Shown one piece after another: positions 22,203 to 52,751 of a stretch of 64,000 bases of DNA. The translations under genes were made by a program, and so were the position numbers. Below the pieces are notes generated by a model that saw only the letters and a program-made list of their open reading frames with translations, was not told the origin of the DNA and searched no databases. Position 1 is the stretch's first letter; the number at the start of each line of letters is the position of its first letter. This stretch comes from a virus (lineage: Duplodnaviria; Caudoviricetes): positions 32,001-96,000 of IMG/VR virus record IMGVR_UViG_3300017780_003104; one strand, 5' to 3'.

Positions 22203-22240
22203 TATTTATCGTTTGACAAAAACTTTCGGCATGGTAAGCT
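22203..22240. promoter_or_regulatory. back-to-back late (minus, TAAATA) and early (plus, TTGACA-N16-TAAGCT, TGn-extended) promoters
   Basis: tattta 22203-22208; TTGACA 22213-22218; TAAGCT 22235-22240; ATG 22246. Confidence 0.65.
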
Positions 22241-32549: not shown

Positions 32550-32780
32550 ATGATAACGATAGAGAAGAAAAATGGTGAAGTTGTTGAGATGACAACAGAT
32601 GAATTCAGCAGATGGATGTGTTTAGCTGAAGCATTCTACTTCATTGAAGAAAAAGCAAATGAACTTAAAATAGATGTATCAGATTTATTGAAACCTTTAG
32701 CCATTGATGGATATATAAAGGAACGATTTGATGCAATGCGTCATGATATTGGTTGTGAGTTGGCACTTGGTAATCTATAA
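32550..32780 (+). CDS. hypothetical protein
   Basis: 76-aa helical ORF. Confidence 0.5.
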   Translation: MITIEKKNGEVVEMTTDEFSRWMCLAEAFYFIEEKANELKIDVSDLLKPLAIDGYIKERFDAMRHDIGCELALGNL

Positions 32781-33607
32781 ATAGATTCCAATTCTAAATC
32801 GATTGAACTTATGTAATCTTGTGTGATTACTGATTTAAACTCATTTAATAATTGGGTTTTATCTAAACCAAGCTCAGTAAACCCAATATAAAAGTTTCTA
32901 AATCTTTCTTTTAAATTATTTGGATAAGTTGTACCATTCGGTCTTTCGAATTTATGCATCCATCGTAAAAATGGTAAGCATATTACTTTCTTACCATTTT
33001 TTCTATATTTTTCGTGGATATAGCCTTCCTCACCACCGAATCCTGTAAAATTCTTGTTGAAACCCAGCCAAGAATCAGTTCTACACGAAAAAAGACCCAT
33101 TCCTTGTGCTGGAATCTCAAATGGGGAGTCATCTATATTCATGCCCTTACCATCACTAGCCCATTTCCCCCACATATAACTCCCCCAATGACTTAAATCA
33201 AAATAAGTGCTGACGGTCTTATTATCATCGTATAATAATGGACCATGTAATAGATTTCCATCATCTTCACCAGATTCATAGTAATCTATTAATTTTTTCA
33301 AAGATCCCGGTTCAAGTAAAACGTGGGAATCGATACACATTGTATATGGAGTGTCTGATAATGCAAAAACTTTACCTTTTAGCATACTTGACTGGTAATT
33401 AACAAATGGAAGATACTGAATTGGCTCAGTTACCCAATTTAAAAGTTTTTTAACGGATTCGCCATGTTTACCAGTTGGATTATTATCAACTATTACAAAT
33501 TCGATATCATCCAACACTTCTTTATGATACATTCTAATCGATTGAATTGTAAAATAAAGTCCGTCAAAGTCATCGTGGGTTGCCACACCAATAGTAAGCT
33601 TTCTCAT
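32741..33607 (-). CDS. GT-A glycosyltransferase with polypeptide GalNAc/GlcNAc-transferase-like (GT27/GT60) motifs
   Basis: D93-S94-H95, PAQGMGLFS, GFNKNFTGFGGEE, RWMHKFERP; TAAATA 6 nt before ATG. Confidence 0.75.
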   Translation of the reverse strand: MRKLTIGVATHDDFDGLYFTIQSIRMYHKEVLDDIEFVIVDNNPTGKHGESVKKLLNWVTEPIQYLPFVNYQSSMLKGKVFALSDTPYTMCIDSHVLLEPGSLKKLIDYYESGEDDGNLLHGPLLYDDNKTVSTYFDLSHWGSYMWGKWASDGKGMNIDDSPFEIPAQGMGLFSCRTDSWLGFNKNFTGFGGEEGYIHEKYRKNGKKVICLPFLRWMHKFERPNGTTYPNNLKERFRNFYIGFTELGLDKTQLLNEFKSVITQDYISSIDLELESIYRLPSANSQPIS

Positions 33608-33619
33608 TGGTGATATTTA

Positions 33620-34483
33620 TTAAAATTTTAATGTTTTACAAGAATATAAACACACTGTGGTATTTGATGTAGTAGTGACCAGTGTTGGTGGTTGTGTGGT
33701 TGTTGTTTCTGGTGGTAATGTAGTGGTTACAGTTATATTTGAGAAATTATTCCCATCTCTCTCATTAGTATTGAATATTAAAGGTGTTGGAGAATTTGGT
33801 GATATCAGAATATTAGTTACATCATAGTTAGGCGAGACTATAAGCGTAGTTGGAACGGGCCAAGCACAACAATCCCTATCATCATCAATAGTCCCCCAGC
33901 TATCTTCACCTGATAATGGTATAGATGGGGTAGTAGTAGGACTATTAGGATCTATAGTTGTTGTAGTTGTTGTAGTGGGAGCTACAGTAGTAGTTGTAGT
34001 GGGAGCTACAGTAGTAGTTGTAGTGGGAGCTACAGTAGTAGTTGTAGTGGGAGCTACAGTAGTAGTTGTAGTGGGAGCTACAGTAGTAGTTGTAGTAGTT
34101 GTGGGTGAAGGAATCTTCAATACATTCCAAAGATCTATTAGATTTTTATCAAAGTCATATACAGAACTTAATGGGATTGCTGACCCCATTCCAAATGCTC
34201 CAAATTTAGTAATACTAAATTCGAGGGGGTAACGTCCACTCCTTCTTCCATTGCTCGCCATGAAATACATATTAGCAAGTGGAGGATCGAATATTGGAAC
34301 ATATGACGAACTTAATAATATATTACCACTGAGACTTGTACTTACATTATATACATAATGAGTGTCAGAATTAACTATGCTATTAATTACACCATCACTA
34401 CTAGATAATAAAGACGAAGCTGTTTGGGACCATCCAAAAGCTGATCCAGACGAAGTAGAAGTTTTGAATATACCAAATGCCAT
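33620..34483 (-). CDS. mucin-like Thr/Pro-rich virion protein, C-x3-C-x2-LKF family member 1
   Basis: Five tandem PTTTTTVA-type units, DCCAWPVP, ends TTVCLYSCKTLKF*. Confidence 0.7.
   Translation of the reverse strand: MAFGIFKTSTSSGSAFGWSQTASSLLSSSDGVINSIVNSDTHYVYNVSTSLSGNILLSSSYVPIFDPPLANMYFMASNGRRSGRYPLEFSITKFGAFGMGSAIPLSSVYDFDKNLIDLWNVLKIPSPTTTTTTTVAPTTTTTVAPTTTTTVAPTTTTTVAPTTTTTVAPTTTTTTTIDPNSPTTTPSIPLSGEDSWGTIDDDRDCCAWPVPTTLIVSPNYDVTNILISPNSPTPLIFNTNERDGNNFSNITVTTTLPPETTTTQPPTLVTTTSNTTVCLYSCKTLKF
33971..34090. repeat. 5 perfect 24-bp tandem repeats TGTAGTGGGAGCTACAGTAGTAGT
   Basis: Counted units at 33971, 33995, 34019, 34043, 34067. Confidence 0.95.
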
Positions 34484-34486
34484 TAT

Positions 34487-35614
34487 TTAATATGGTGTTT
34501 CAACAAATAGTTGAGCCGTATTTTTAAATGATAGGACTTTATTTACTGGTATATTTACTGGTGTATCGTAATTAATCACATTGATAATTGAGGTTGTAGA
34601 ACCAGAAAAATATCCAAGTATTATTTGTGATATATCACTACCTCCAACAGTAACCAGTCCATATACGTTTGTATTAGCTGTTGAATTGTTGGTAATAGTT
34701 GGTAATCTATCAGATGTAATATCTAAAGCCGTAATGGTTTCAGTTGGGATATTACTGGCAGCTACGTATATAGTTGAGCTGTAAGGAATACCTGAAATTG
34801 ACGATACTTTGTTAGCATTATTCATTAGTAATATTCTATTTGGAATATTACTAGCTGTGCTTATATCTGTGGTTAAATGGAGAAATCTTTGGAGTGTTCC
34901 ACTCCCACTTAAACCTTGTATGTAATCATCATTTGTAAAGGGTCTAGGTATTCCAATGTCAATAGTAAATGTATTTTTAAAATCACGTATAATTAGAGAA
35001 TCTCCGATACTTAAAGTAATAGCTGGGGTTAGCATGATATAAGCACTAATACTTTGAGTCGGAGCGTATACGATAGTATTAATGGTTTGTGGGACAACTA
35101 CTGGGGCAAATAATCCAGATAACGATCTAGACACTGAACTAGGTGTTGTGGTTAGTGTATTTGAGAAAACTGCTGCTTGGTAAGAACCAGTAACCTCACC
35201 ACCATTAAATGGATTAGTTCCAGTTTTATTACGTATTAATTGTGATGGAGTTGTTACACTACCAGATAGAGATATCTGAATAGTGCTTAGATTTCTAACT
35301 AATACGTAAGCTTTTTCACCTGATGGGAATTGCACATGATCCCCAACATTCATACCAGATGCGCTATTGAATATCACATTACCAGTCTGTCTATATACTG
35401 TATTACCCGATAATGTATAAGTTCCAGTCAATAATTCACTTCCGAGTTGGTTGTGGGTCCAGAAGAGAGTATTATTGATACCCATATATATTTGGCGACC
35501 TGCATTAACTGCCCAACTAGACCATATATTATGTCTTTTACCATAATCAACTATAGTTCCATCCTTTTTTAATATCGCCAAATCGATAACTGCTCCTAAT
35601 ATTGGATCTTTCAT
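34487..35614 (-). CDS. putative tail/baseplate appendage protein; paralogue of 35652..36803
   Basis: TATAAATA (35622-35629 minus); shares LGAVID..KxDG..V.YGK.HN start, GSG..QR and YDTP...VETP with its neighbour. Confidence 0.6.
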   Translation of the reverse strand: MKDPILGAVIDLAILKKDGTIVDYGKRHNIWSSWAVNAGRQIYMGINNTLFWTHNQLGSELLTGTYTLSGNTVYRQTGNVIFNSASGMNVGDHVQFPSGEKAYVLVRNLSTIQISLSGSVTTPSQLIRNKTGTNPFNGGEVTGSYQAAVFSNTLTTTPSSVSRSLSGLFAPVVVPQTINTIVYAPTQSISAYIMLTPAITLSIGDSLIIRDFKNTFTIDIGIPRPFTNDDYIQGLSGSGTLQRFLHLTTDISTASNIPNRILLMNNANKVSSISGIPYSSTIYVAASNIPTETITALDITSDRLPTITNNSTANTNVYGLVTVGGSDISQIILGYFSGSTTSIINVINYDTPVNIPVNKVLSFKNTAQLFVETPY

Positions 35615-35651
35615 ATATTCTTATTTATAATTAATGTTTATATAGTAAACC

Positions 35652-36803
35652 TTATGGAGTTTCAACGTCCAATTTTAAAGTTGAGTAAATAGTTAAGTTT
35701 CTACTACCCGCTGCTATTGCTATTGGTGTATCATATTCGATTATACATGATATTACGGGTGGTACTGATGCATCACCGACCAATATTTGTTTAATTGGAG
35801 TTGCATCAGATGTGAATGCTCCAAATGCACTTAATAGACTGGTTGCATTATAGTCAATATCAGCTAGGTTATTTCTGGTGGTTGTGCTTATTGTATATTT
35901 CGCAGTCACACTTGGTCTATATGTGGTGGATCGCATCGCTGATAAAAATGGTACTTTATTTGCATCAGTTAGTAGATAAATTCTAGTATTGACCCCAGTA
36001 TGTCCTGTGCCAAGAGAGTATTCATCTCTATCATATGGAATGGTTCGTTGCATTTTACCAGATCCCACCAATCCAGTTATGGGTGATACCGCAAATACTC
36101 TCGGAGCGTCTACATTAAATGTTATTGAATACTGGTAGTCTGGTATCACAAGAGCATCACCCACATCCAACCTTATAGGTGGAACGATATCTATATACCC
36201 TCCATGGAAACTAGTATCATGATATGTTATTCGATATATATCATATGTCGAGAATGTCGGTGGGAATTGGGCAGATAAATTTACACTATATATTCCAGAT
36301 GTGCTTAATGAGGTATAATATGGATCAGTAGTAATTACACCTAGGTTTGTTTGCTTCACTAAAGTATTCGATGTCATATTAATTCCATATCCAACGGATT
36401 CTGTTTTGTGTAATCGAACTATCGAACTTGGTTCAGATCCAGTTACACTAATAGGACAAGATGAGAATGTTGTCGTTCCAGTAGTTTTGTAACATTTAAA
36501 ACCAGATGGGAATTCGAACAACGACCCATTGGGGATAGTTAAAAGTGATACGGGGTTGATACCATATAATATTTTGCCTGTTACATAGTAAGTTCCAGAT
36601 AATGTCGAGGAACCATACCCAAGATCATCGGTGTTATCATATGTTGAGAAGGTTCTAGGGTCAGACATGTAAAGTCTTCTCCATGTTAAACCCTTATTCA
36701 CTAATCCCCCCAATACGTTATGGTATTTTCCATAATTCACCAATGATCCATCATTTTTTATGACAGATATATCTATAACCGCTCCTAATTTCGCATTATT
36801 CAT
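35652..36803 (-). CDS. putative tail/baseplate appendage protein; paralogue of 34487..35614
   Basis: Whole-length motif correspondence with 34487..35614; beta-rich, Thr/Ser-rich. Confidence 0.6.
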   Translation of the reverse strand: MNNAKLGAVIDISVIKNDGSLVNYGKYHNVLGGLVNKGLTWRRLYMSDPRTFSTYDNTDDLGYGSSTLSGTYYVTGKILYGINPVSLLTIPNGSLFEFPSGFKCYKTTGTTTFSSCPISVTGSEPSSIVRLHKTESVGYGINMTSNTLVKQTNLGVITTDPYYTSLSTSGIYSVNLSAQFPPTFSTYDIYRITYHDTSFHGGYIDIVPPIRLDVGDALVIPDYQYSITFNVDAPRVFAVSPITGLVGSGKMQRTIPYDRDEYSLGTGHTGVNTRIYLLTDANKVPFLSAMRSTTYRPSVTAKYTISTTTRNNLADIDYNATSLLSAFGAFTSDATPIKQILVGDASVPPVISCIIEYDTPIAIAAGSRNLTIYSTLKLDVETP

Positions 36804-36810
36804 CTTATAA

Positions 36811-37389
36811 TTATGTCAATCTTCCAGCTAAGTTCCATATTGCTCCAGTATTATCACTCAAGGAATCGAATATAACATCACCCATAATACCAGATAATCC
36901 ATATACCATACCAGAAGTATCAGTCTCTGTCACATCATATGTATTCCCCATAATACCAGATAATCCATATACCATACCAGAAGTATCAGTTAATATAATA
37001 TCGGATTCGTTTTGACCAACTCCATATAATGTCCCATTTTGCGGGGATTCTAAAACTAATGAAAATACATGAGTGCTACTAACTCCCAAATAGGCTGATG
37101 AGGATTTACCACTATCAAAGTATTGAGAAGACCCATTACCCATAACATACCCACTAATACTATGAGTTGCACTATTTGGATAAGACCCACTGGTACCAGT
37201 TTTTAAACATATCGAATTTGCAGTCGCATTTCCCCAAACTGGGAACCACATAAAGTTATGTAAAGACCATCTACCAGATACTTTCTCGGCAAAAATGAAA
37301 TAATCAATGGCACTTATTTTAAATTCTGGAACCGCTGATCCCATAGCACTTTCAATTGCAGCTACATATATGAGAGTTTCGGGTTCCAT
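36811..37389 (-). CDS. putative tail-associated protein with an internal duplication
   Basis: Structural-block context; TDTSGMVYGLSGIMG occurs twice. Confidence 0.55.
   Translation of the reverse strand: MEPETLIYVAAIESAMGSAVPEFKISAIDYFIFAEKVSGRWSLHNFMWFPVWGNATANSICLKTGTSGSYPNSATHSISGYVMGNGSSQYFDSGKSSSAYLGVSSTHVFSLVLESPQNGTLYGVGQNESDIILTDTSGMVYGLSGIMGNTYDVTETDTSGMVYGLSGIMGDVIFDSLSDNTGAIWNLAGRLT
36881..36990. repeat. exact 44-bp direct repeat, period 66 nt
   Basis: Copies at 36881-36924 and 36947-36990. Confidence 0.9.
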
Positions 37390-37391
37390 TT

Positions 37392-38591
37392 TTAGAATTT
37401 AAGTTTTTCACATCCATCATCACACTTTATTATAGTGGTTGTTGTGGTTGTAGTGGTTGTAGTGGTTGTAGTTGTCGTAGTTGTCGGTGCTAATGTAGTT
37501 ATGATAGGTTTAAACTTATCAATATTTAATGGTGGGTTGGTTGATATCAACTGAGGATTAGATAACTGGGATTTTGGTAATATATATTTTGGATATTCTG
37601 TATTATATTCTGGAACTCTTTTAGAGCATGGGCATGCTATATTAGTAGGTTCTGGTGTTGTTGTTGTAGTAGTAGTAGGTTCTGGTGTTGTTGTTATTGT
37701 TGTTATTGGTGTAGGATCTACTATACAAATTTTATTAATCCAAAGATTACCTTGTGGGACGTAATGAGTTCTCTGATATAGTCCCGTATAGGTCCATATA
37801 GCACTTATATGATTATTGGTGAAAACTTCGCTTTCACCATATAGAGTTTCATTGAAGGATGGTAATACTATAATGGTTGGTGTTGGTATTGGTGCTGGGT
37901 TAACGTTTTGTAACACATAGTCATAAGATATATTTGCTAATACGAACCCCACTCCAACAGTCCTTTCAATTAATTCATCCCCATAAGAAGGGTTATATAC
38001 ATCACCTTTATATAAGCTTATTGTAGGCCCCAAACTCCTATACCAAGTTTCATCTGGTTTTGGAAATCCTCCCTCAGTGTTTTCTGGTACGAATGTAATT
38101 TCAACATAGTGTGGAGATGAGATCACTCCACTAACAGATCTTGCATAGTACAATATCGGGTAATCATCTAGTATATTGACAGTAACTGGTAATCTAACTT
38201 CAATATAATTTGGGTTAAACACCTCCCAACCCAACCCAACCCCAACAGTTTGAGTGATGGTAACATCTCCTAAATTATAAGTGTGACCAGCAGTAACATG
38301 TATTGATGGATCTGTAGGTATAAGAAATTGATACTCATTATTAATACCATCAATATTAAGTAGATCGTATGTCCCATCGGCGCAATACTTAACACCTTCC
38401 ACTGTTATCGTTGTATTCTCAATGGTATCGTCATAACCAAGTGCAACTTGGCCATCTATAGCCACAGTCATGATAGACATTTCACCATTAAGATAGCTAA
38501 TATCTGTAGATATAAATGATCGAATAACCCCATAATTACAATAATGGTAATCTTTTGGATCTGGGTATTGTATACTAGGATCTGTTGGCAT
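37392..38591 (-). CDS. mucin-like Thr-rich virion protein, C-x3-C-x2-LKF family member 2
   Basis: TTTPEPTTTTTTTPEP, CPCSKRVP, long poly-Thr run, ends KCDDGCEKLKF*. Confidence 0.7.
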   Translation of the reverse strand: MPTDPSIQYPDPKDYHYCNYGVIRSFISTDISYLNGEMSIMTVAIDGQVALGYDDTIENTTITVEGVKYCADGTYDLLNIDGINNEYQFLIPTDPSIHVTAGHTYNLGDVTITQTVGVGLGWEVFNPNYIEVRLPVTVNILDDYPILYYARSVSGVISSPHYVEITFVPENTEGGFPKPDETWYRSLGPTISLYKGDVYNPSYGDELIERTVGVGFVLANISYDYVLQNVNPAPIPTPTIIVLPSFNETLYGESEVFTNNHISAIWTYTGLYQRTHYVPQGNLWINKICIVDPTPITTITTTPEPTTTTTTTPEPTNIACPCSKRVPEYNTEYPKYILPKSQLSNPQLISTNPPLNIDKFKPIITTLAPTTTTTTTTTTTTTTTTTIIKCDDGCEKLKF

Positions 38592-38594
38592 AAT

Positions 38595-39773
38595 TTAAAA
38601 CTTTAAAACTTTACAATTATTTAAACATTCGGTAGTTGGTATTAGGGTTGTGGTGGTTGTGGTGGTTGTAGTGGTTGTAGTTGGCTTTAGTGTAGTTGTT
38701 ACGATTATACCCGTATATATCTGTTTCTGGGGAGGATTATTTAAATTTATAATGGGTTGATCAATATATATTGAGTTATCGAATTTAAAATTTGGATTTC
38801 CAGATGGTGTCGATGGAACCTCTGGTAAACATACCTCACAAGGACCAGATGATGGGGAGGGTGTAGTAGTGGTAGTAGTGGTAGTAGTAGTAGTTGGTAT
38901 TGGGGTGGTACCAATAGGCGGAATAACATCACAATTCACCGTCATATCACCAACCGAACATGCAAATCTTGAATGATTATATATTGGTAGCCCTTGTGGT
39001 GGTTGTACATCCCATCCAAGATCACCTTCACCATATACATGAATATATATGGTGTAAGGTAAGTATACTTGCTTAGTTAAATATCCATCGGGCCTAGCTC
39101 CTTCAATGTCTACTTGATTTGTATACGGTATAGTTACCCTAACTGTTGTATTAGTGGTTTCACATGGATGTAATGATTTTAGATTAATCGATTGTAAAGT
39201 TCCTTCGGGGTCATCTAGTAAACCCCCCGAATGGCTAAAAATTACAAAAGATGATGTTCCGCCTATTGTTGGGGTTATCGTCGCTTCCTCTACTAATTCT
39301 GCCGCATAATTATTGTAAGAACTACCAAATGTTGGATTATTATTATTAATATTTCCAGATATTGTCATGACAATATACACAAGATATTCAACTCTATCGT
39401 ATTTTGCACCACCATTGAATCCTTCGCCGAATTCATCGCCAAGGTAGTACTCGTAATCATGATCCGGTAGAGGTATACTGGTTGTGGTTGGCGGATTTAG
39501 TGGTGTATTTACACCATAATCTGTTTTATATATCCAGTAGTTAAATCCTCCGTATATAAGATTAAGAGAATTTATTAATCCATCCCTTATATATTTCGTA
39601 CCTACTACATCTATCGTGGTGTCGGTATGGGGGCCATATAAGGGATCACCGGGAGCTACACATGGTTCAGATGTGAATGCTGTGATGCGCTGGTCTATTA
39701 ATGCATTATAATTTCCATCAGTTGGGTGGAGCCAACTAACTTCGGGTCTATGCACTATAAATGTCGAAGGCAT
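38595..39773 (-). CDS. mucin-like Thr-rich virion protein, C-x3-C-x2-LKF family member 3
   Basis: Two poly-Thr runs, CEVCLPEVP, ends ECLNNCKVLKF*; N-domain similar to member 2 (TTI.V.G.KY..DG). Confidence 0.7.
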   Translation of the reverse strand: MPSTFIVHRPEVSWLHPTDGNYNALIDQRITAFTSEPCVAPGDPLYGPHTDTTIDVVGTKYIRDGLINSLNLIYGGFNYWIYKTDYGVNTPLNPPTTTSIPLPDHDYEYYLGDEFGEGFNGGAKYDRVEYLVYIVMTISGNINNNNPTFGSSYNNYAAELVEEATITPTIGGTSSFVIFSHSGGLLDDPEGTLQSINLKSLHPCETTNTTVRVTIPYTNQVDIEGARPDGYLTKQVYLPYTIYIHVYGEGDLGWDVQPPQGLPIYNHSRFACSVGDMTVNCDVIPPIGTTPIPTTTTTTTTTTTPSPSSGPCEVCLPEVPSTPSGNPNFKFDNSIYIDQPIINLNNPPQKQIYTGIIVTTTLKPTTTTTTTTTTTTLIPTTECLNNCKVLKF

Positions 39774-40472
39774 TTACACTGGATTTGCTGTTATACCAGA
39801 TATTGTGGTATATTGATTAATTATATACGAACTTAGCGGTATATATGGAATCGTCTCATACGTTGGGGCTATTATACCTCCTTGAGCATGGAAATCTTTA
39901 ACGAACATAGTCGATGGAGTTACAACAGTATTAATCGGGGAGCAGAATGTGAATCCGGGGTGAAGTGGAAGACTTAAATTTGGCGAAGTTAACGCCACAC
40001 TGGTCAATGTTATATAATTGGATGTTCCAACCCTATAATCGACAGATATTTTCTTTCCACCATTAGTATATCTAAATCTGAGAGTCTGGAATGTTTTATC
40101 TGGTTGTGTTAATATAAAATCTTTAGATAATGATGATAGAGACTCATTTAAAATGACTTCATTGCTAGAATTTCTTATAATTAAGGCATTTTGCTTAATT
40201 GCACTTAGAGCAACACCCGGATGCGGACCTATTGGTAGAGCAAACCTGCCAGTTGTATCAAAAGCAACTGCAAATATACCATTTGGCACGTTTGTATTAC
40301 TATAATAACCTAGTGAATCACCCCCAACGCACGATAATGCGGTGTTACTTAGACTTAAAAATGATGTAAATCCATGTTCCTCACCAGATAATGAGAATGT
40401 GAAACTCCATGCTATATCCCAATGTGGATTATAGTCGTATTTACTGTCTAAAAATCCATATAATTTATCCAT
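39774..40472 (-). CDS. legume (L-type) lectin / ConA-like domain protein
   Basis: WSFTFSL, HGFTSFL, GGDSLGY, IFAVAFDT (cf. legume-lectin VAVEFDT). Confidence 0.55.
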   Translation of the reverse strand: MDKLYGFLDSKYDYNPHWDIAWSFTFSLSGEEHGFTSFLSLSNTALSCVGGDSLGYYSNTNVPNGIFAVAFDTTGRFALPIGPHPGVALSAIKQNALIIRNSSNEVILNESLSSLSKDFILTQPDKTFQTLRFRYTNGGKKISVDYRVGTSNYITLTSVALTSPNLSLPLHPGFTFCSPINTVVTPSTMFVKDFHAQGGIIAPTYETIPYIPLSSYIINQYTTISGITANPV

Positions 40473-40473
40473 T

Positions 40474-41559
40474 TTAGAAATCTATGGTTAGGCATATATT
40501 AGCATTTTTAGTCACACCAGAAGAATTTATAACTTTAATTTCACATGATGATAGATCTGTTGCCGTCACTCTGGCCGAACAATCCAAGGCATCAGAACCA
40601 ACTATAGTAGCCATTGGGATATAATTAGTAGTTATAGGGAGGAATGTGACTTTATAATGACCAGTGGCTAGTGTTGAGTAACTTATAACATGTCTACTAA
40701 ATACACCACCTCCAGATAATGCATTATACTTAAATAAAAGTTTACTACTACGAATGGTTACATTATTAGTTAATGTTGAGATTTCTGTCCCAGTTGATGT
40801 TAATCCGTTAACCAATGAATATAATCCATGTTCGATAGTGACAGTTTTATCTGATACGAGACTTGCAGGAATATTACCCAAAGCAATCTTCCCATTTTGG
40901 ATATATAACGGTGATGATAGAGCATCTTGGGATATACTATAAGAAGATAATGGATTTAGTGCTATTTTTCCACCAATAACTGATAGGGGTGAGGTTACTG
41001 CGCTATTCGATATATAACCAGCAGGAATACTACCCAATACTATCTTACCATTTTGGATATATAAAGGTGCTGAAAGGGCATCTTGTGATATGCTATAAGC
41101 CGATAATGGATTTAGTGCTATTCTTCCACCACTAACTGATAGGGGTGAGGTTAATAAATCCTGAGATATTGAATTGGCTGATAATGGATTTAAAACTATA
41201 GAATTAGCTGATGATATGGATATGAAACGAGAACCACTATATGATCCCCCAATTGATTTCCAATCACTGATAGTTGCACCATTATTAGCCGATAAAACAT
41301 ATAATGTATTATGTTGAGATGAAAATCCAAAGTCTCCAATAATTGCGGGTTGGATCGCAGAATCCGTTATCAATGGTGATATACCTTTGAACTTATTTCC
41401 TGCGATAACACCACCAACGGTGTAACCATTACCCACAAATAATCGTTCTTGATCTGTTGTAAACCCTAATTCCCCCGAATCTAGGGTAATTTGAGTTCGA
41501 TCAAAATTCGAACCTTGACGAACCTTTAATTTAATAATTGAATTGTTTAAAATTTCCAT
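40474..41559 (-). CDS. tail fibre-like protein with Mtd_N-like N-terminus and 52-aa internal repeats
   Basis: LKVRQG...LDSGELGFTTDQERLFVGNG; repeated LNPLS.YSISQDALS.PLYIQNGKI. Confidence 0.6.
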   Translation of the reverse strand: MEILNNSIIKLKVRQGSNFDRTQITLDSGELGFTTDQERLFVGNGYTVGGVIAGNKFKGISPLITDSAIQPAIIGDFGFSSQHNTLYVLSANNGATISDWKSIGGSYSGSRFISISSANSIVLNPLSANSISQDLLTSPLSVSGGRIALNPLSAYSISQDALSAPLYIQNGKIVLGSIPAGYISNSAVTSPLSVIGGKIALNPLSSYSISQDALSSPLYIQNGKIALGNIPASLVSDKTVTIEHGLYSLVNGLTSTGTEISTLTNNVTIRSSKLLFKYNALSGGGVFSRHVISYSTLATGHYKVTFLPITTNYIPMATIVGSDALDCSARVTATDLSSCEIKVINSSGVTKNANICLTIDF

Positions 41560-41565
41560 AATATA

Positions 41566-42864
41566 TTAGTAAGCGAATATTGGTATTGCAAATCTACCCA
41601 CTTGTTGACCGGATCTAGTTGTAGTATTTCCTTCAAATGTGATAAATCCAGCAGAAGATAATGTTATAACAGATCCATTTGATGATAACGCAGTAAATTG
41701 AGTTATCATCACACCAGTTAGAGGTCCATTTATAGTATGTGATGGACTACCATTAAATAATGCAGATAATGAGTTACTAGAATTGAATGAACTTAATGCG
41801 GAGTTACCGGACAGTGTTCCATATATAGAAGATACTTGAGATGTTACTCTACCAAACGTATCTACTACAATTTGTGGTAGCTGATTAGTTCCAGAAGAAT
41901 TTAAGGTACTTAAGCTTATAACACCAGCATCAGTTTTAACTATAGTATTATTATCTACGTTAGTTAGTGTAGTAGAAATCGAAGATGTGGTGGTGCTGTA
42001 AGTTAAACCACTTCCAAACCACGATGAACTTAAATCAGTGAATCTTAGACTATATGGTAATGGAATATCAGTTTTTAAGCTTATAACACCAGCATCAGTC
42101 TTTATTATAGTAGCATTATCTACGTTAGTTAGTGTGGTCGATAATGAAGATGTTGTTAAACTATAAGTTAAACCACTTCCAAACCACGATGAACTTAAAT
42201 CAGAGAATCTTAGACTATATGGTAAGGGAGTATCAGTTTTCAATGATATAAAATTACCATTAAACTTTAAGAAATTTGTATCTAGATCTACATTTACTAT
42301 ACTTCCAGATCCACCACTCAATCCAAGTCCAAAAGAAGACGATAACATCTCAACTTCTGTTACACCACCAGCTGCTAATTTTAATTTATTAGTGCTTATA
42401 GTGAAATCACCAGTGTCGTAATTCAGTTGTAATATATCTGAGTCTATTTTAATCCCATTACTGATTGTAGTTGGATCTAAATATTTAGATTTTATGGATG
42501 ATAAATTTATTACCAATTGATTGTTTGCATCATAACTAAAAATCGAAGGATCTGCCGATAATCGACCTATAATGGTCCAAGAATTTATATTACTATAATC
42601 TGGAGATGTTAATTGATATAATGTACCTTCAACCGGAACGACATCTCCGATTTCAGATTTAATTGCCAACATCGAAGAGACGGTATATCCATATGGGAAT
42701 ATTTTACTCCCGGTGGGTTTACCACCAAGAGTGACTCCATCACCAACATAAAGTCTGGTAGTGTCCAGTGTGTGTGCTAACTCGCCTTGATCAAATACTA
42801 TTAATTTTCTTTGATCATCGGTGCCTCTTCTGGCTTTTATCTTCGATATTTTAATTTCTGGCAT
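41566..42864 (-). CDS. tail fibre-like protein with Mtd_N-like N-terminus and two 55-aa repeats
   Basis: IKARRG...FDQGELAHTLDTTRLYVGDG; 165-nt period repeat at about 41910-42240; VDTFGRVT fibre motif. Confidence 0.6.
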   Translation of the reverse strand: MPEIKISKIKARRGTDDQRKLIVFDQGELAHTLDTTRLYVGDGVTLGGKPTGSKIFPYGYTVSSMLAIKSEIGDVVPVEGTLYQLTSPDYSNINSWTIIGRLSADPSIFSYDANNQLVINLSSIKSKYLDPTTISNGIKIDSDILQLNYDTGDFTISTNKLKLAAGGVTEVEMLSSSFGLGLSGGSGSIVNVDLDTNFLKFNGNFISLKTDTPLPYSLRFSDLSSSWFGSGLTYSLTTSSLSTTLTNVDNATIIKTDAGVISLKTDIPLPYSLRFTDLSSSWFGSGLTYSTTTSSISTTLTNVDNNTIVKTDAGVISLSTLNSSGTNQLPQIVVDTFGRVTSQVSSIYGTLSGNSALSSFNSSNSLSALFNGSPSHTINGPLTGVMITQFTALSSNGSVITLSSAGFITFEGNTTTRSGQQVGRFAIPIFAY

Positions 42865-42879
42865 ATTGAATATATCTAA

Positions 42880-43542
42880 TTACGCTGTTCTCTTCCAAAT
42901 ATATAGACCAAATGATGGTGGCATGTTATTATGTGCGCCACTACCACCAGCACTTGGTAACACTCCCATATATCTTCCATCCTTTGAATCGTCCGGTCCA
43001 TCGCTTCTAAATCTCGACTCAGTGGTTGGACTTGATTCATTACGATCATTGAACAAATAGAACTGTTCTCCATCTGAAGCTTTAAGACTATGAGTGTGTG
43101 ATGGCATTTCCGATTCGGAAAGGGTGTGTCTATATTCTCCAGAATTTTCCCCCCCGGCTATAGTTACACTAACCCCATTAGAATCAACTCCAGTGCCAAT
43201 CCCTGCGACAAACATCCCCTCACTTATACGAACCCATGTTCCACCCATCGAGTAACCGGGATTTAAATCAACCGCTGTGAAATACACAGTATGGACTGGA
43301 AAAAAACGATTTAAAAGTGTCGTATACTCAGCCTCTGTGTCTACATTTTCGATAACTAACGATCCCACTGTTAATTGTCCACAAATTCTAGCCCCATTAC
43401 AAGTTCTACCTAGACTGAAGGAACTTTCGTTGCCAAGACCATCATACATGGGGGTAAGCCCAGTTTCAGGTAAAGGTTGACCCCCTGAATGTAATAAACC
43501 ATCGAAGGTATCTGCGATATATGTATCTGATAAAGAACTCAT
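42880..43542 (-). CDS. baseplate/tail-collar protein (gp10 C-terminal-like)
   Basis: FPVHTVY...NPG..MGGTW, HTLSESEMPSHTH, HNNMPP..GLYIWKRTA; TAAATA upstream. Confidence 0.7.
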   Translation of the reverse strand: MSSLSDTYIADTFDGLLHSGGQPLPETGLTPMYDGLGNESSFSLGRTCNGARICGQLTVGSLVIENVDTEAEYTTLLNRFFPVHTVYFTAVDLNPGYSMGGTWVRISEGMFVAGIGTGVDSNGVSVTIAGGENSGEYRHTLSESEMPSHTHSLKASDGEQFYLFNDRNESSPTTESRFRSDGPDDSKDGRYMGVLPSAGGSGAHNNMPPSFGLYIWKRTA

Positions 43543-50846: not shown

Positions 50847-50933
50847 TTGATATTATTTATATCAAAGATCTGAATATCGTTTGGATATGAAATTATTTAG
50901 TTGAAAAACAACAATTTGGAGTAAATACGATAA

Positions 50934-51146
50934 ATGAATACTAAATTGTTTAAAAAGCTAAGGGATAAAGAGGAAAAATTATTAGACATCATCTATGAAA
51001 TTCAAGAATTACTGGATTCAACTGAAGATGAAGAGCTTTCTTCAATGGGGGTCGAATTTTGTGAAATAATGGTCGACTTCATACATTCCAATGATACAGT
51101 ATCTTTAAATGACATCAAAGAATTCATCGAAGAAAATATATCGTAA
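50934..51146 (+). CDS. small acidic hypothetical protein
   Basis: TAAATA (50922-50927) 6 nt before ATG. Confidence 0.55.
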   Translation: MNTKLFKKLRDKEEKLLDIIYEIQELLDSTEDEELSSMGVEFCEIMVDFIHSNDTVSLNDIKEFIEENIS

Positions 51147-52020
51147 TATTTTAATATTAGGTAAGGGATATATAGGTGCTGAATTGGCTAACTTTTTATC
51201 AAAAGTCCAAGATATTAAAATATTCCATATTTCTAGGTCTGATATAGATTATCATAATATCGATATTATGAGAAAGTATATATTAAACAATGAAATCAGA
51301 TATGCAATAAATTGTTCGGGCTTTACTGGTAGACCTAATGTTGATGAAGGGGAAATTAAATCTGAAGAATGCTGGAATTTAAATGTGGTAGTCCCATTAA
51401 GACTCTCCATATTAATGGAGTCTATGGGTGTTAAATATACTCATATTAGCAGTGGCTGTATATATACTGGATATGAAAGGATTTATACGGAGACAGACGC
51501 TCCAAATTTTGGAATGTTTGATATCAGTAGCTTTTATAGTAAAAGTAAACACGCATTCGAAACCTTAGTTAAGGATATCAATATCAAAATATTAAGAATT
51601 AGAATGCCCATATGCTACAATTTAAATAATCCTAGAAATTATCTAAAGAAAATAATGGAATATCCAAATTTGATCGATTATAGAAATTCTAAAACTCTTA
51701 TACCTGAATTATGTATGTTCATTCAATCATTATTGACTGACCAAAAAACTGAGTGGTATAATGGATGTGACATTTACAATGTTGTCAATCCAGATCCATT
51801 GACAACTATGGAGGTTGTGGACCATTTAAATTATATGAACGAGGAAAATTGGAAGATGTTGAATCCTAATTGGGTAAAGATTGAAGATTTATCTATAGTG
51901 GCTCCTAGAAGTAACTGTATATTAGATAATACGAAAGCTGATAACATATTCAAACTTAGTCCAGAGAAAATAGCAATGAATAAAGTCTGCAACTATAACA
52001 ACGGGATTCAGGGAATATGA
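51109..52020 (+). CDS. NDP-4-keto-6-deoxyglucose 3,5-epimerase/4-reductase (NRS/ER, UER1-like; RmlD-superfamily SDR)
   Basis: ILGKGYIG, GFTGRPNVD, SSGCIY, FYSKSK (YxxxK), LRIRMPI..NLNNPRNYLKKI, VAPRSNCILD. Confidence 0.75.
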   Translation: MTSKNSSKKIYRNILILGKGYIGAELANFLSKVQDIKIFHISRSDIDYHNIDIMRKYILNNEIRYAINCSGFTGRPNVDEGEIKSEECWNLNVVVPLRLSILMESMGVKYTHISSGCIYTGYERIYTETDAPNFGMFDISSFYSKSKHAFETLVKDINIKILRIRMPICYNLNNPRNYLKKIMEYPNLIDYRNSKTLIPELCMFIQSLLTDQKTEWYNGCDIYNVVNPDPLTTMEVVDHLNYMNEENWKMLNPNWVKIEDLSIVAPRSNCILDNTKADNIFKLSPEKIAMNKVCNYNNGIQGI

Positions 52021-52751
52021 AAGGTATTATTCTTAGCGGTGGGCGTGGATCAAGGTTATTCCCATTAACATATGGGATTTCGAAGCAATTACTTCCGGTA
52101 TATAAACAACCCATGGTTTTTTATCCACTCAAAACTCTTATCGATATGGGTATCCATGAAGTTTTGATTATTGTCGCCTCAAAACTTCAAAAACAATTAT
52201 TTTTTGAATATTTGGGTGATGGATCTAAGTTTGGAGTTAAATTAGAGTATATCATACAAGAAAATCCAAATGGATTGGCCGAGGCATTTATAATAGGTGA
52301 AAAATTCATAGGTGGTGATGATGTCACTTTGATTTTGGGCGATAATGTATTTTTAACGAATAAAAAAATCGAAACTCAACAAAATGCTATCTTCACATAT
52401 AAAGTAAAAAACCCATCAGATTATGGTGTCATAAAACATGACGAACACGGAAACATTGAGAAGATCATCGAGAAGCCGACAGAATTTGTAAGTAATGACG
52501 CTGTAGTTGGGCTTTATGTGTTTTCAAACATGGCTATTAGCCTAGCCAAAAAGGTTAAACCATCTAAGCGTGGGGAATTGGAAATTGTAGATCTGATAAT
52601 GTTGATGGATATGTATGAGGGTGTATACTCTCAAGAATTTGATGGGGTGTGGTTTGATTGTGGAACACATGATGATTTATTAGAGTGTTCGGAGTTCGTT
52701 CGCGCTCTTGACAAGAGAACGACCCGTGATATATTTCTAAAAGAAATATGA
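52017..52751 (+). CDS. rfbA: glucose-1-phosphate thymidylyltransferase (RmlA), short form
   Basis: GIILSGGRGSRLFPLT...SKQLLPVYKQPMVFYP, QENPNGLAEAF, LILGDN, KPSKRGELEI, WFDCGT. Confidence 0.92.
   Translation: MKGIILSGGRGSRLFPLTYGISKQLLPVYKQPMVFYPLKTLIDMGIHEVLIIVASKLQKQLFFEYLGDGSKFGVKLEYIIQENPNGLAEAFIIGEKFIGGDDVTLILGDNVFLTNKKIETQQNAIFTYKVKNPSDYGVIKHDEHGNIEKIIEKPTEFVSNDAVVGLYVFSNMAISLAKKVKPSKRGELEIVDLIMLMDMYEGVYSQEFDGVWFDCGTHDDLLECSEFVRALDKRTTRDIFLKEI

What the first reader, a model, noticed from the sequence alone, without database searches (positions are those of the whole stretch)
32741..39773. Candidate phage-encoded mucin-type protein O-glycosylation system for virion appendages
Seen: three late structural genes (33620, 37392, 38595) encode long Thr/Pro-rich stalks. 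The gene immediately downstream on the same strand (32741..33607) is a GT-A enzyme with polypeptide-HexNAc-transferase-like motifs, and its own TAAATA late box overlaps the preceding stop codon. The window also has four more GTs, RmlA, an NDP-rhamnose epimerase-reductase and an L-lectin-like gene next to the stalk genes. Known: Thr/Pro-rich tracts are the acceptors of GT27/GT60 enzymes, and giant viruses (Mimivirus, chloroviruses) glycosylate their virions with self-encoded pathways. Inference: this tailed phage may build glycan-coated, mucin-like appendages with its own initiating enzyme, extending GTs and sugar donors. Possible roles are shielding, adhesion or host-surface mimicry. I do not know of a described T4-like system with this acceptor-plus-enzyme linkage.
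Basis: partly seen in the sequence, partly recalled or inferred. Interest (0 to 1): 0.9.

Follow-up and report, generated by a model that had tools for sequence, protein, structure and literature searches.

The report
Phage fibre sugar-coating gene cassette
A large uncultured freshwater T4-like phage carries, at the end of its tail-fibre genes, a conserved cassette (lectin-like protein, threonine-rich proteins, and an enzyme shaped like the animal enzymes that start mucin glycosylation), so it probably sugar-coats its own appendages, although no sugar has been measured.

Summary
Three minus-strand ORFs (33620, 37392, 38595) carry poly-Thr/Pro tracts. They are the only such ORFs in the complete 211.7-kb genome. 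All three end C-x3-C-x2-L-K-F.

A 288-aa GT-A enzyme starts 12 nt after the last one. Its model (pLDDT 93.8) matches polypeptide GalNAc-transferases (GT27) best, ahead of all other solved GT-A enzymes. D-x-H and a distal His are invariant in the family.

- **Synteny:** in 83 related viral loci, 69 have a Thr-rich ORF with the same C-terminal signature ending next to the GT start.
- **Cassette:** a legume-lectin-fold gene usually heads it (lectin, Thr-rich protein(s), GT).
- **Co-occurrence:** anchored on the lectin gene, GT and Thr-rich tails appear together (25/2/4/18; odds ratio 56).
- **Bacterial relatives:** at 43-51% identity, these are often fused to PqqD peptide-binding domains. They lie beside small proteins with poly-Thr tails.

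Best reading (about 0.6): late, cytoplasmic O-glycosylation of the Thr tracts of fibre-module proteins. Glycosylation itself, the donor sugar and virion location are all inferred.

The "four more GTs" are only weakly supported. No paper in the searched library describes this system. Unchecked notes of this scan report the same pairing on other genomes. I class it as a new variant of phage virion glycosylation.

The parts
32741..33607 (-). Stand-alone GT-A glycosyltransferase (288 aa) with a GT27-like fold. D93-x-H95, FGGEE (191-194) and H218 are invariant in the family. It has no signal peptide or membrane segment.
33614..33621 (-). AATAAATA box overlapping the stop codon of the preceding gene, 6 nt before the GT start. 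It is a candidate late-type promoter or coupling element.
   Evidence: Sequence. The same box at the same spacing precedes four other genes. It is conserved in 29 of 46 distinct related loci, against 0 of 46 in a control window.
33620..34483 (-). Thr/Pro-rich protein 1 (287 aa). It has PTTTTTVA repeats, a second Thr tract and the C-terminal tail C-x3-C-x2-L-K-F. It is the putative acceptor directly upstream of the GT.
   Evidence: Homologous position and tail in 69 of 83 viral loci.
33963..34096 (-). 24-nt tandem repeat (5.6 copies, 99% matches) encoding the PTTTTTVA units.
   Evidence: Contigs from other metagenomes break here.
34487..35614 (-). Fibre-module protein of unknown fold, paralogue of 35652-36803. 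Its middle (about 34665-35522) is replaced in other strains. It has a TATAAATA box 7 nt upstream.
   Evidence: Paralogy at 32% identity, E 5e-38. Variable segments. Box.
35652..36803 (-). Paralogue of 34487-35614, function unknown.
36811..37389 (-). Small fibre-module protein (192 aa) with no family match.
37392..38591 (-). Thr/Pro-rich protein 2 (399 aa). It has two Thr tracts (one a run of 17) and the tail C-x3-C-x2-L-K-F. The N-terminal roughly 290 aa are orphan.
   Evidence: Length polymorphism of the first Thr tract between strains.
38595..39773 (-). Thr/Pro-rich protein 3 (392 aa). It has two Thr tracts and the tail C-x3-C-x2-L-K-F. The N-terminal roughly 285 aa are orphan.
39774..40472 (-). 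Legume (L-type) lectin-fold protein that heads the cassette.
   Evidence: Model pLDDT 90.3. Foldseek PDB top 50 are all legume lectins, best E 4e-7, TM 0.57. It lies directly upstream of the Thr-rich gene(s) in 31 GT loci.
40474..42864 (-). Two fibre-like proteins with an Mtd_N N-terminal domain and internal 156-165-nt duplications.
   Evidence: Pfam PF18454. Tandem repeats.
42880..43542 (-). Baseplate gp10 C-terminal-domain protein. It marks the start of the fibre module.
   Evidence: Pfam PF21939, E 8e-18.
51109..52751 (+). RmlD-family reductase/epimerase gene and RmlA (glucose-1-phosphate thymidylyltransferase). They are a possible donor supply.
   Evidence: Two 4,6-dehydratase-family genes lie outside the window. 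The genome has no RmlC.

Best explanation
The block 39774 to 32741 is a conserved three-part cassette at the distal end of the tail-fibre module of a complete 211.7-kb freshwater T4-like phage. It comprises an L-type lectin-fold protein, one to three proteins, and a soluble GT-A enzyme. Each of those proteins has a variable N-terminal domain, a poly-Thr/Pro tract and a fixed C-terminal tail (C-x3-4-C-[NK]-x-L-x-[FY]).

Most likely mechanism: the enzyme is made late together with the fibre genes. It uses a Mn2+-bound nucleotide sugar (D-x-H plus a distal His) to attach sugars to hydroxyl groups of the Thr tracts in the host cytoplasm. This would turn the tracts into stiff, protease-resistant, mucin-like stalks on virion appendages.

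The Thr tract, not the Cys tail, is the probable acceptor. It is the one feature shared with the bacterial systems that use the same enzyme family. The Cys tail is more likely a folding, trimerisation or docking element.

Shown:
- gene order and its conservation;
- co-occurrence of GT and Thr-rich tails;
- the fold and the invariant residues;
- the bacterial parallel.

Inferred:
- that the transfer happens at all;
- that Thr is the acceptor;
- the donor sugar and the anomeric linkage;
- late timing;
- that the proteins sit on the virion.
For: **1. Fold.** The GT model has pLDDT 93.8.
- The Foldseek PDB top 50 and the Swiss-Prot AFDB top 30 are all polypeptide GalNAc-transferases.

**2. Residues.** D93-x-H95, H218 and G191/E194 of the FGGEE block are invariant in 40 relatives; D-x-H and the distal His are also invariant in a further set of 70.

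**3. Linkage.**
- Of 83 viral loci, 70 have a Thr-rich ORF ending 10-13 nt before the GT, and 69 carry the C-terminal signature.
- 75 of 1662 ORFs carry the signature, against 0 in a shifted control. All 75 are Thr-rich and lie upstream of the GT.
- The partners range from 65 to 2058 aa, and their N-terminal parts do not all match one another.

**4. Co-occurrence.** In 49 loci anchored on the lectin gene, the counts are GT+tail+ 25, GT+tail- 2, GT-tail+ 4 and GT-tail- 18, giving odds ratio 56, p 1e-7.

**5. Whole genome.** The three Thr-rich ORFs are the same three that carry the signature, and there is one GT of this family.

**6. Independent bacterial parallel.**
- 17 of 70 representative relatives carry a fused PqqD peptide-recognition domain.
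- Their neighbourhoods hold HprK-related kinase A, PqqD and nucleotidyltransferase genes.
- They also hold small proteins with a twin-arginine-like leader and a poly-Thr tail.
- Thr-rich frames number 36 within 3.5 kb of the GT against 4 beyond it.

**7. Virion context.**
- The cassette follows gp10-like and Mtd_N fibre genes on one strand with tiny gaps.
- Large partners in relatives have tailspike-type beta-helix regions.

**8. Timing.** The GT has the late-type box rather than the TTGACA seen before early genes.

**9. Donor supply.** The genome has RmlA, an RmlD-like gene and two 4,6-dehydratase-family genes.
Against: - There is no chemical or proteomic evidence of glycosylation, and no cultured relative. 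The GT has no match in 50,697 GenBank phage records.
- Sequence identity to GT27 is only 13-17%. Sequence searches of the PDB hit only the generic N-terminal half of GT2 enzymes. The fold match therefore shows likeness, not acceptor specificity.
- Linkage within one large phage clade may partly reflect inherited gene order. The statistics are not corrected for relatedness.
- Exceptions exist. Four lectin-anchored loci have the tail protein without a GT within 10 kb, and two have the GT without it. Two fragmentary records with a CNKLGF-tailed protein have no GT.
- Fourteen of 83 GT loci lack the signature partner.
- The phage has no PqqD domain, so substrate recognition must differ from that in the bacterial systems.
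- The complex prediction of GT with the tail gave no answer.
Confidence: 0.6

Rival explanations
1. The GT remodels a host surface glycan (O-antigen, capsule or teichoic-type polymer), for example to block superinfection. This is the published reading for glycosyltransferases found among the tail-fibre genes of pelagimyophages. Its position next to the Thr-rich genes would then be inherited gene order with no enzyme-substrate relation.
Against: - The full-length fold is closest to protein-directed GT27.
- The enzyme is soluble and has a late-type box rather than an early promoter.
- GT and Thr-rich tails come and go together.
- Bacterial relatives carry peptide-binding PqqD domains and lie by poly-Thr peptides. 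A glycan-directed enzyme would not need these.
Confidence: 0.13
2. The GT does act on the neighbouring proteins, but not on the Thr tracts. It would modify the conserved C-terminal tail, for instance by S-glycosylating one of the two Cys residues as glycocin GT2 enzymes do, or it would use the tail only as a docking peptide.
For: The tail C-x3-4-C-[NK]-x-L-x-[FY] is the most conserved feature of the partners. It ends 10-13 nt before the GT gene. Established knowledge: the glycocin S-glycosyltransferases SunS and ThuS are GT-A enzymes acting on Cys.
Against: - Bacterial partners of the same GT family have poly-Thr but no Cys tail.
- Some phage GT loci have Thr-rich partners without the tail, namely L006, L007 and L067.
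- Complex prediction gave no answer.
Confidence: 0.12
3. The Thr-rich tracts are unmodified structural linkers or beta-rich fibre shafts. The GT serves an unrelated acceptor such as another phage protein or a small molecule. The pairing would then be a neutral consequence of where new genes are tolerated at the end of the fibre module.
For: Thr/Pro linkers occur in many unglycosylated bacterial and phage proteins (established knowledge). The ends of fibre modules are hot spots for gene insertion (PMC7029224). Fourteen of 83 GT loci have another gene upstream.
Against: The same association arises independently in bacteria in a quite different gene context. The co-occurrence odds ratio is 56. 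Thr-rich ORFs occur nowhere else in this 211-kb genome.
Confidence: 0.1

Closest known systems
Polypeptide N-acetylgalactosaminyltransferases (CAZy GT27), initiators of mucin-type O-glycosylation in animals and apicomplexans
   Different: Identity is only 13-17%, with no significant sequence match. The phage enzyme has no ricin-type lectin domain and no membrane anchor or secretory pathway. It would act in the bacterial cytoplasm. Donor and linkage are unknown. The separate lectin here has a different fold (legume type) and is a separate gene.
Mycobacteriophage virion glycosylation (Che8, Corndog, Myrna; Freeman et al. 2023, Cell Host Microbe, cited in PMC12801897; details from my own knowledge because the paper is not held)
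   Same: Phage-encoded glycosyltransferases next to structural genes are proposed or shown to O-glycosylate virion proteins on C-terminal Ser/Thr-rich stretches.
   Different: There the acceptors are capsid and tail-tube subunits of siphoviruses of actinobacteria, and glycosylation was measured. Here the acceptors would be fibre-module proteins of a T4-like myovirus, carrying a distinct Cys tail and accompanied by a lectin-fold gene. The enzyme is of a family with no match among the GenBank phage records searched, and nothing has been measured.
Bacterial PqqD/HprK-related-kinase-A ('HPr-rel-A'-type) peptide-modification clusters that contain the same GT domain
   Same: The GT domain is 43-51% identical. 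A poly-Thr sequence is encoded within about 3 kb.
   Different: The bacterial partners are small (70-130 aa) proteins with a twin-arginine-like leader. They come with PqqD, kinase and nucleotidyltransferase genes and often extra GT, methyl- or sulfotransferase domains. The phage has no PqqD, and its acceptors are large fibre-module proteins. I found no paper on this bacterial system.
Giant-virus virion glycosylation (Mimivirus fibrils, chlorovirus capsid)
   Same: Virus-encoded sugar-nucleotide synthesis plus glycosyltransferases are used on the virus's own surface proteins. The genome here has RmlA with an RmlD-family gene but no RmlC.
   Different: Those are eukaryote-infecting viruses with different enzyme families and glycan types. 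No Thr-tract/Cys-tail acceptor module is known to me there.

Membership tests
CAZy GT27 (polypeptide GalNAc-transferase) | GT-A catalytic domain structurally closest to GT27 | tested here: met
CAZy GT27 (polypeptide GalNAc-transferase) | Mn2+ triad: D-x-H plus a distal His | tested here: met
   D93-x-H95 and H218 are invariant in 40 and in 70 relatives. Spatial equivalence to the GT27 ligands was not checked residue by residue.
CAZy GT27 (polypeptide GalNAc-transferase) | Gal/GalNAc-T motif (WGGEN-type block) | tested here: inconclusive
   A conserved FGGEE block (G191 and E194 invariant; F190, G192 and E193 invariant or nearly so) lies at the corresponding place in the order of motifs. The comparison with WGGEN rests on memory.
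CAZy GT27 (polypeptide GalNAc-transferase) | Significant sequence similarity to GT27 members | tested here: not met
   phmmer against all PDB chains found nothing at E up to 10. The profile search hits only the N-terminal half of TarP, TarS and K4CP. Structural alignments show 13-17% identity.
CAZy GT27 (polypeptide GalNAc-transferase) | C-terminal ricin-type lectin domain and type II membrane anchor | tested here: not met
   The protein is 288 aa with a single Pfam domain, and the model is one globular domain. The sequence shows no hydrophobic N-terminus.
CAZy GT27 (polypeptide GalNAc-transferase) | Transfers GalNAc from UDP-GalNAc in alpha linkage to Ser/Thr of a polypeptide | not testable with these tools
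   Needs an enzyme assay.
Pfam Glycos_transf_2 (PF00535) | Score above the curated cut-off | tested here: met
   29.7 bits against 23.3, E 7.4e-7. 30.8 bits in the genome search.
Phage virion O-glycosylation systems (mycobacteriophage type) | Phage-encoded GT next to structural genes whose products carry Ser/Thr-rich stretches | tested here: met
Phage virion O-glycosylation systems (mycobacteriophage type) | Glycans detected on virion proteins | not testable with these tools
   No isolate. The GT has no match in GenBank phage records.
Bacterial PqqD-associated peptide-modification clusters with this GT domain | GT domain homologous over its full length | tested here: met
   E down to 7e-95 at 42-54% identity over residues 2-280. 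462 stretches in species-representative genomes.
Bacterial PqqD-associated peptide-modification clusters with this GT domain | PqqD (RiPP recognition element) fused or adjacent | tested here: not met
   No PF05402 match in the complete phage genome at E up to 0.1.
L-type (legume) lectin fold, for 39774-40472 | Legume-lectin beta-sandwich fold | tested here: met
   pLDDT 90.3. PDB top 50 are all legume lectins, E 4e-7, TM 0.5-0.58. Pfam Lectin_legB is only sub-threshold (E 0.059). Sugar binding was not tested.

The most novel reading that the evidence does not exclude
A widespread enzyme family that I could not find described, with the fold of the animal mucin-initiating transferases, makes poly-threonine glycoconjugates in two settings. 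In bacteria it would act on small exported poly-Thr peptides, guided by PqqD domains. In large aquatic T4-like phages it would act on fibre proteins. In the phages the cassette's own legume-lectin-fold protein may bind the glycan the enzyme installs, so that a sugar-lectin contact would help assemble or position the appendages.
Probability: 0.25. Interest if true: 0.88.

Novelty: new variant of a known kind. Interest (0 to 1): 0.72.

Why it matters
- **Reinterpretation.** It would show that tailed phages of Gram-negative aquatic bacteria build mucin-like, glycan-coated appendages with their own GT27-like enzyme. The many glycosyltransferases seen among the fibre genes of aquatic T4-like phages have so far been read as host-surface modifiers. 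This would reinterpret at least some of them.
- **A testable pair.** It gives a compact enzyme-acceptor pair (288-aa soluble GT plus a short Thr repeat) for cytoplasmic protein O-glycosylation in bacteria, which is of interest for glycoengineering.
- **A bacterial lead.** It points to a bacterial poly-Thr peptide modification system on which I found no paper.
- **Ecology.** Glycan coats could affect adsorption, protease and grazing resistance, and particle stickiness in water.

Tried and rejected
- **Complex prediction.** GT with the last 50 residues of the 33620 protein scored 0.00 with no verdict. This is evidence neither for nor against.
- **GenBank phages.** blastn of the region and tblastn of the GT and of the 38595 protein found no match. 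Comparison with cultured phages was therefore impossible. The DNA polymerase is only about 30% identical to the best records.
- **Family libraries.** PHROGs and NCBIfam gave nothing for the cassette proteins.
- **ESM Atlas.** Searches with the N-terminal domains of the 38595 and 37392 proteins gave no usable hit. Their folds remain unknown.
- **First adjacency count.** The count of 60 of 83 was an undercount. Greedy ORF picking sometimes chose the long antisense frame of the ACN repeats. A frame-aware count replaced it.
- **Late promoter.** The exact T4 late promoter TATAAATA as the explanation for the GT box was rejected as not enriched. It was replaced by the looser ATAA[AT]TA box at fixed spacing.
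- **Reverse search.** Searching for CNKLGF plus a stop codon gave 24 stretches. Only 10 were real long ORFs: 8 with the GT adjacent and 2 without.
- **RNA evidence.** No RNA run holds the stretch, so expression and timing are untested.
- **Literature.** I found no description of this phage system or of the bacterial poly-Thr clusters. Freeman 2023 is not held.
- **DNA glycosylation.** I considered and set aside a DNA-directed role for this GT. The fold, the late-type box, the PqqD-fused relatives and the linkage to Thr-rich ORFs all point to a peptide acceptor.

Full report
**What is there**

The window is part of a complete 211,724-bp virus record with direct terminal repeats. It has 34% G+C. 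It is T4-like: gp32, clamp loader, DnaB-like helicase, RecA/UvsX-like protein, gp25, gp6-like, gp10-like, large terminase and PhoH are all present. Its DNA polymerase is only about 30% identical to the nearest GenBank phages. Near-identical contigs occur in freshwater and riverine metagenomes of at least ten studies besides the probable source sample.

From 50846 down to 32741, all genes lie on the minus strand with gaps of a few bases. In order they are:
- large unknown proteins;
- a gp10 C-terminal-domain protein (42880-43542);
- two Mtd_N fibre-like proteins;
- the block of the finding.

**Observation**

The three ORFs at 33620, 37392 and 38595 do carry long Thr/Pro tracts. One tract is encoded by a nearly perfect 24-nt tandem repeat. 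In the whole genome they are the only ORFs with 8 or more Thr in 12 residues. They are also the only ORFs that end C-x-x-L-x-[FYW]; here all three end C-x3-C-x2-L-K-F. Their N-terminal parts are barely alike and match nothing.

The GT gene starts 12 nt after the 33620 stop. An AATAAATA box overlaps that stop.

**The enzyme**

Pfam places it in Glycos_transf_2, a model that does not separate CAZy GT2 from GT27. About 1,600-1,700 relatives exist in metagenomes.

Alignments of 40 and 70 relatives show these invariant residues: D41-N42, D93-x-H95, G191, E194, and W216-x-H218-x-F220; the rest of the FGGEE block is invariant or nearly so.

The AlphaFold model is confident (pLDDT 93.8, pTM 0.90).
- Foldseek against the PDB returns only polypeptide GalNAc-transferases in the top 50 (E 6e-14, TM 0.70 by query).
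- Against Swiss-Prot models, the top 30 are the same family.

By sequence the enzyme is not a GT27 member. Identity is 13-17%, and PDB sequence searches find only the generic N-terminal half of TarP, TarS and K4CP. There is no ricin domain and no membrane anchor. So it works like a GT27 catalytic domain in architecture, but I do not file it in that family.

**Linkage in phages**

IMG/VR holds 539 contigs with a relative, and I examined 84 loci.

A frame-aware count shows the following among the 83 loci that have upstream sequence:
- 70 have a Thr-rich ORF on the same strand ending next to the GT start;
- 69 of the upstream ORFs end C-x-x-L-x-[FYW];
- 67 have both features.

Over all 1,662 ORFs of these loci, 75 carry the signature, against 0 for the same pattern shifted six residues. 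All 75 are Thr-rich and lie upstream of the GT within 5 kb.

The consensus tail is a poly-Thr tract, then about ten residues, then C-x3-4-C-[NK]-x-L-x-[FY] at the very C-terminus. The partners range from 65 to 2,058 residues, and their N-terminal parts do not all match one another. The largest contain right-handed beta-helix regions typical of tailspikes.

A reverse search for DNA encoding CNKLGF plus a stop found ten real ORFs. Eight had the GT directly downstream. Two, on fragmentary records, had none.

**The lectin and the cassette**

The protein of 39774-40472 folds confidently (pLDDT 90.3). Its 50 best PDB matches are all legume lectins.

Its homologue lies directly upstream of the Thr-rich gene or genes in 31 of the GT loci. 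The recurrent unit is therefore lectin, Thr-rich protein(s), GT.

I used the lectin gene as an independent anchor. The 49 loci with at least 9 kb downstream split as follows:

| | tail present | tail absent |
|---|---|---|
| GT present | 25 | 2 |
| GT absent | 4 | 18 |

Fisher odds ratio is 56, p 1e-7. The loci are related to each other, so this p-value overstates independence.

**Independent support from bacteria**

Relatives at 42-54% identity are mostly domains of 400-1,280-residue proteins.
- Of 70 sampled, 17 carry a PqqD domain, the peptide-binding element of RiPP pathways (established knowledge).
- Thirteen carry a GT25 domain, and others carry methyl- or sulfotransferase, TPR or HprK-like parts.
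- Species-representative genomes contain 462 such stretches across several bacterial phyla.
- Neighbourhoods hold HprK-related kinase A, PqqD and nucleotidyltransferase genes.

In 29 of 79 loci, a Thr-rich frame lies within 3.5 kb. There are 36 such frames near the GT against 4 in an equal amount of more distant DNA.

About twenty of these are small, often tandem genes. Their products share a twin-arginine-like leader ending P-A-H-A-A-A-S, followed by an almost pure Thr tail.

So the same enzyme family sits beside poly-Thr sequences in two unrelated genomic settings. The shared feature is the Thr tract, not the Cys tail. This is why I place the acceptor on Thr.

**Timing and donors**

The GT is preceded by ATAA[AT]TA plus 5-6 nt before the start codon. 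The same box at the same spacing precedes four other genes in the window, including one exact TATAAATA. Many plus-strand replication genes instead show TTGACA.

The box is kept in 29 of 46 distinct related loci, against 0 of 46 in a control window. Late co-expression with fibre genes is therefore likely but not shown. No RNA run holds the region.

The genome encodes RmlA, an RmlD-family enzyme and two 4,6-dehydratase-family proteins, but no RmlC. Other GT candidates are weak: three in the window, all below the Pfam cut-offs. Whether any of these feed or extend the putative glycan is open.

**Population data**

Contigs from other studies are about 99% identical over the GT. They break at each Thr tract.

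One strain has 441 letters where the window has 75, at the first Thr tract of the 37392 gene. The middle of the 34487 gene is replaced between strains. Variable stalk length and a diversifying neighbour fit a host-contact apparatus.

**Verdict**

- The most likely mechanism is late cytoplasmic O-glycosylation of the Thr tracts of fibre-module proteins by a soluble GT27-like enzyme. The Cys tail would serve as a folding or docking element, and the lectin-fold protein would be a conserved partner of unknown role.

Rivals keep a combined weight of about 0.35. They are host-glycan remodelling, modification of the Cys tail, and unmodified linkers.

Phage virion O-glycosylation is known from mycobacteriophages, and virus-encoded glycosylation is known from giant viruses. 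This is therefore a new variant of a known kind. In the library I could search, I found no paper describing it for T4-like phages or describing the bacterial counterpart.

Unchecked notes of this scan report the same pairing on at least 36 other genomes. My IMG/VR survey agrees with them.

Noticed in passing
L113, L138, L149, L151, L158, L160, L170, L171, L179, L183, L085, L086 (alignment A4): Bacterial family of small (70-130 aa), often tandem proteins. They have a twin-arginine-like leader ending PAHAAAS and an almost pure poly-Thr tail. They lie 1-3 kb from the GT domain, together with PqqD, HprK-related kinase A and nucleotidyltransferase genes. This looks like a peptide glycosylation system on which I found no paper.
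   Followed up: partly
window 34665-35522: The middle of the 34487-35614 gene is replaced by unlike sequence of similar length in contigs from three other metagenome studies, while the flanks stay about 95-99% identical. This pattern is typical of a diversifying receptor-binding protein.
   Followed up: no
window 37642-37716: Length polymorphism of a Thr tract. A contig of run X3 has 441 letters where the window has 75, while runs X8 and X12 resemble the window. Assemblies also break at every Thr tract.
   Followed up: no
window 33614-33620, 35622-35629, 36808-36814, 50854-50861, 22203-22209 (approximate): The box ATAA[AT]TA, followed by 4-7 nt and the start codon, precedes five genes. Many plus-strand replication genes instead carry TTGACA upstream. 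It is probably this lineage's late promoter, with almost no leader.
   Followed up: partly
window 51109-52751 and genome 25251-26838 (outside the window): RmlA, an RmlD-family gene and two 4,6-dehydratase-family genes are present, but no RmlC anywhere in the complete genome. This suggests either a bifunctional epimerase-reductase or a 6-deoxyhexose other than L-rhamnose.
   Followed up: partly
window 40865-41153 and 41910-42240: Internal tandem duplications of 156 and 165 nt (88-89% matches) lie in the two Mtd_N fibre-like genes.
   Followed up: no
L210, L218: In these relatives the GT starts 4 nt after the lectin-fold gene, with no Thr-rich gene between them. This is a minimal lectin-GT pair and could be a useful natural control.
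   Followed up: no
L111, L127: GT relatives lie on contigs binned into Flavobacterium (68% identity, 3.6-kb contig) and Polaribacter metagenome-assembled genomes. This could be a host hint or a binning artefact.
   Followed up: no
window 32741-33607: This GT family is present on 539 IMG/VR contigs but has no tblastn match (E 1e-3 or better) in 50,697 GenBank phage records. No cultured phage appears to carry it.
   Followed up: partly
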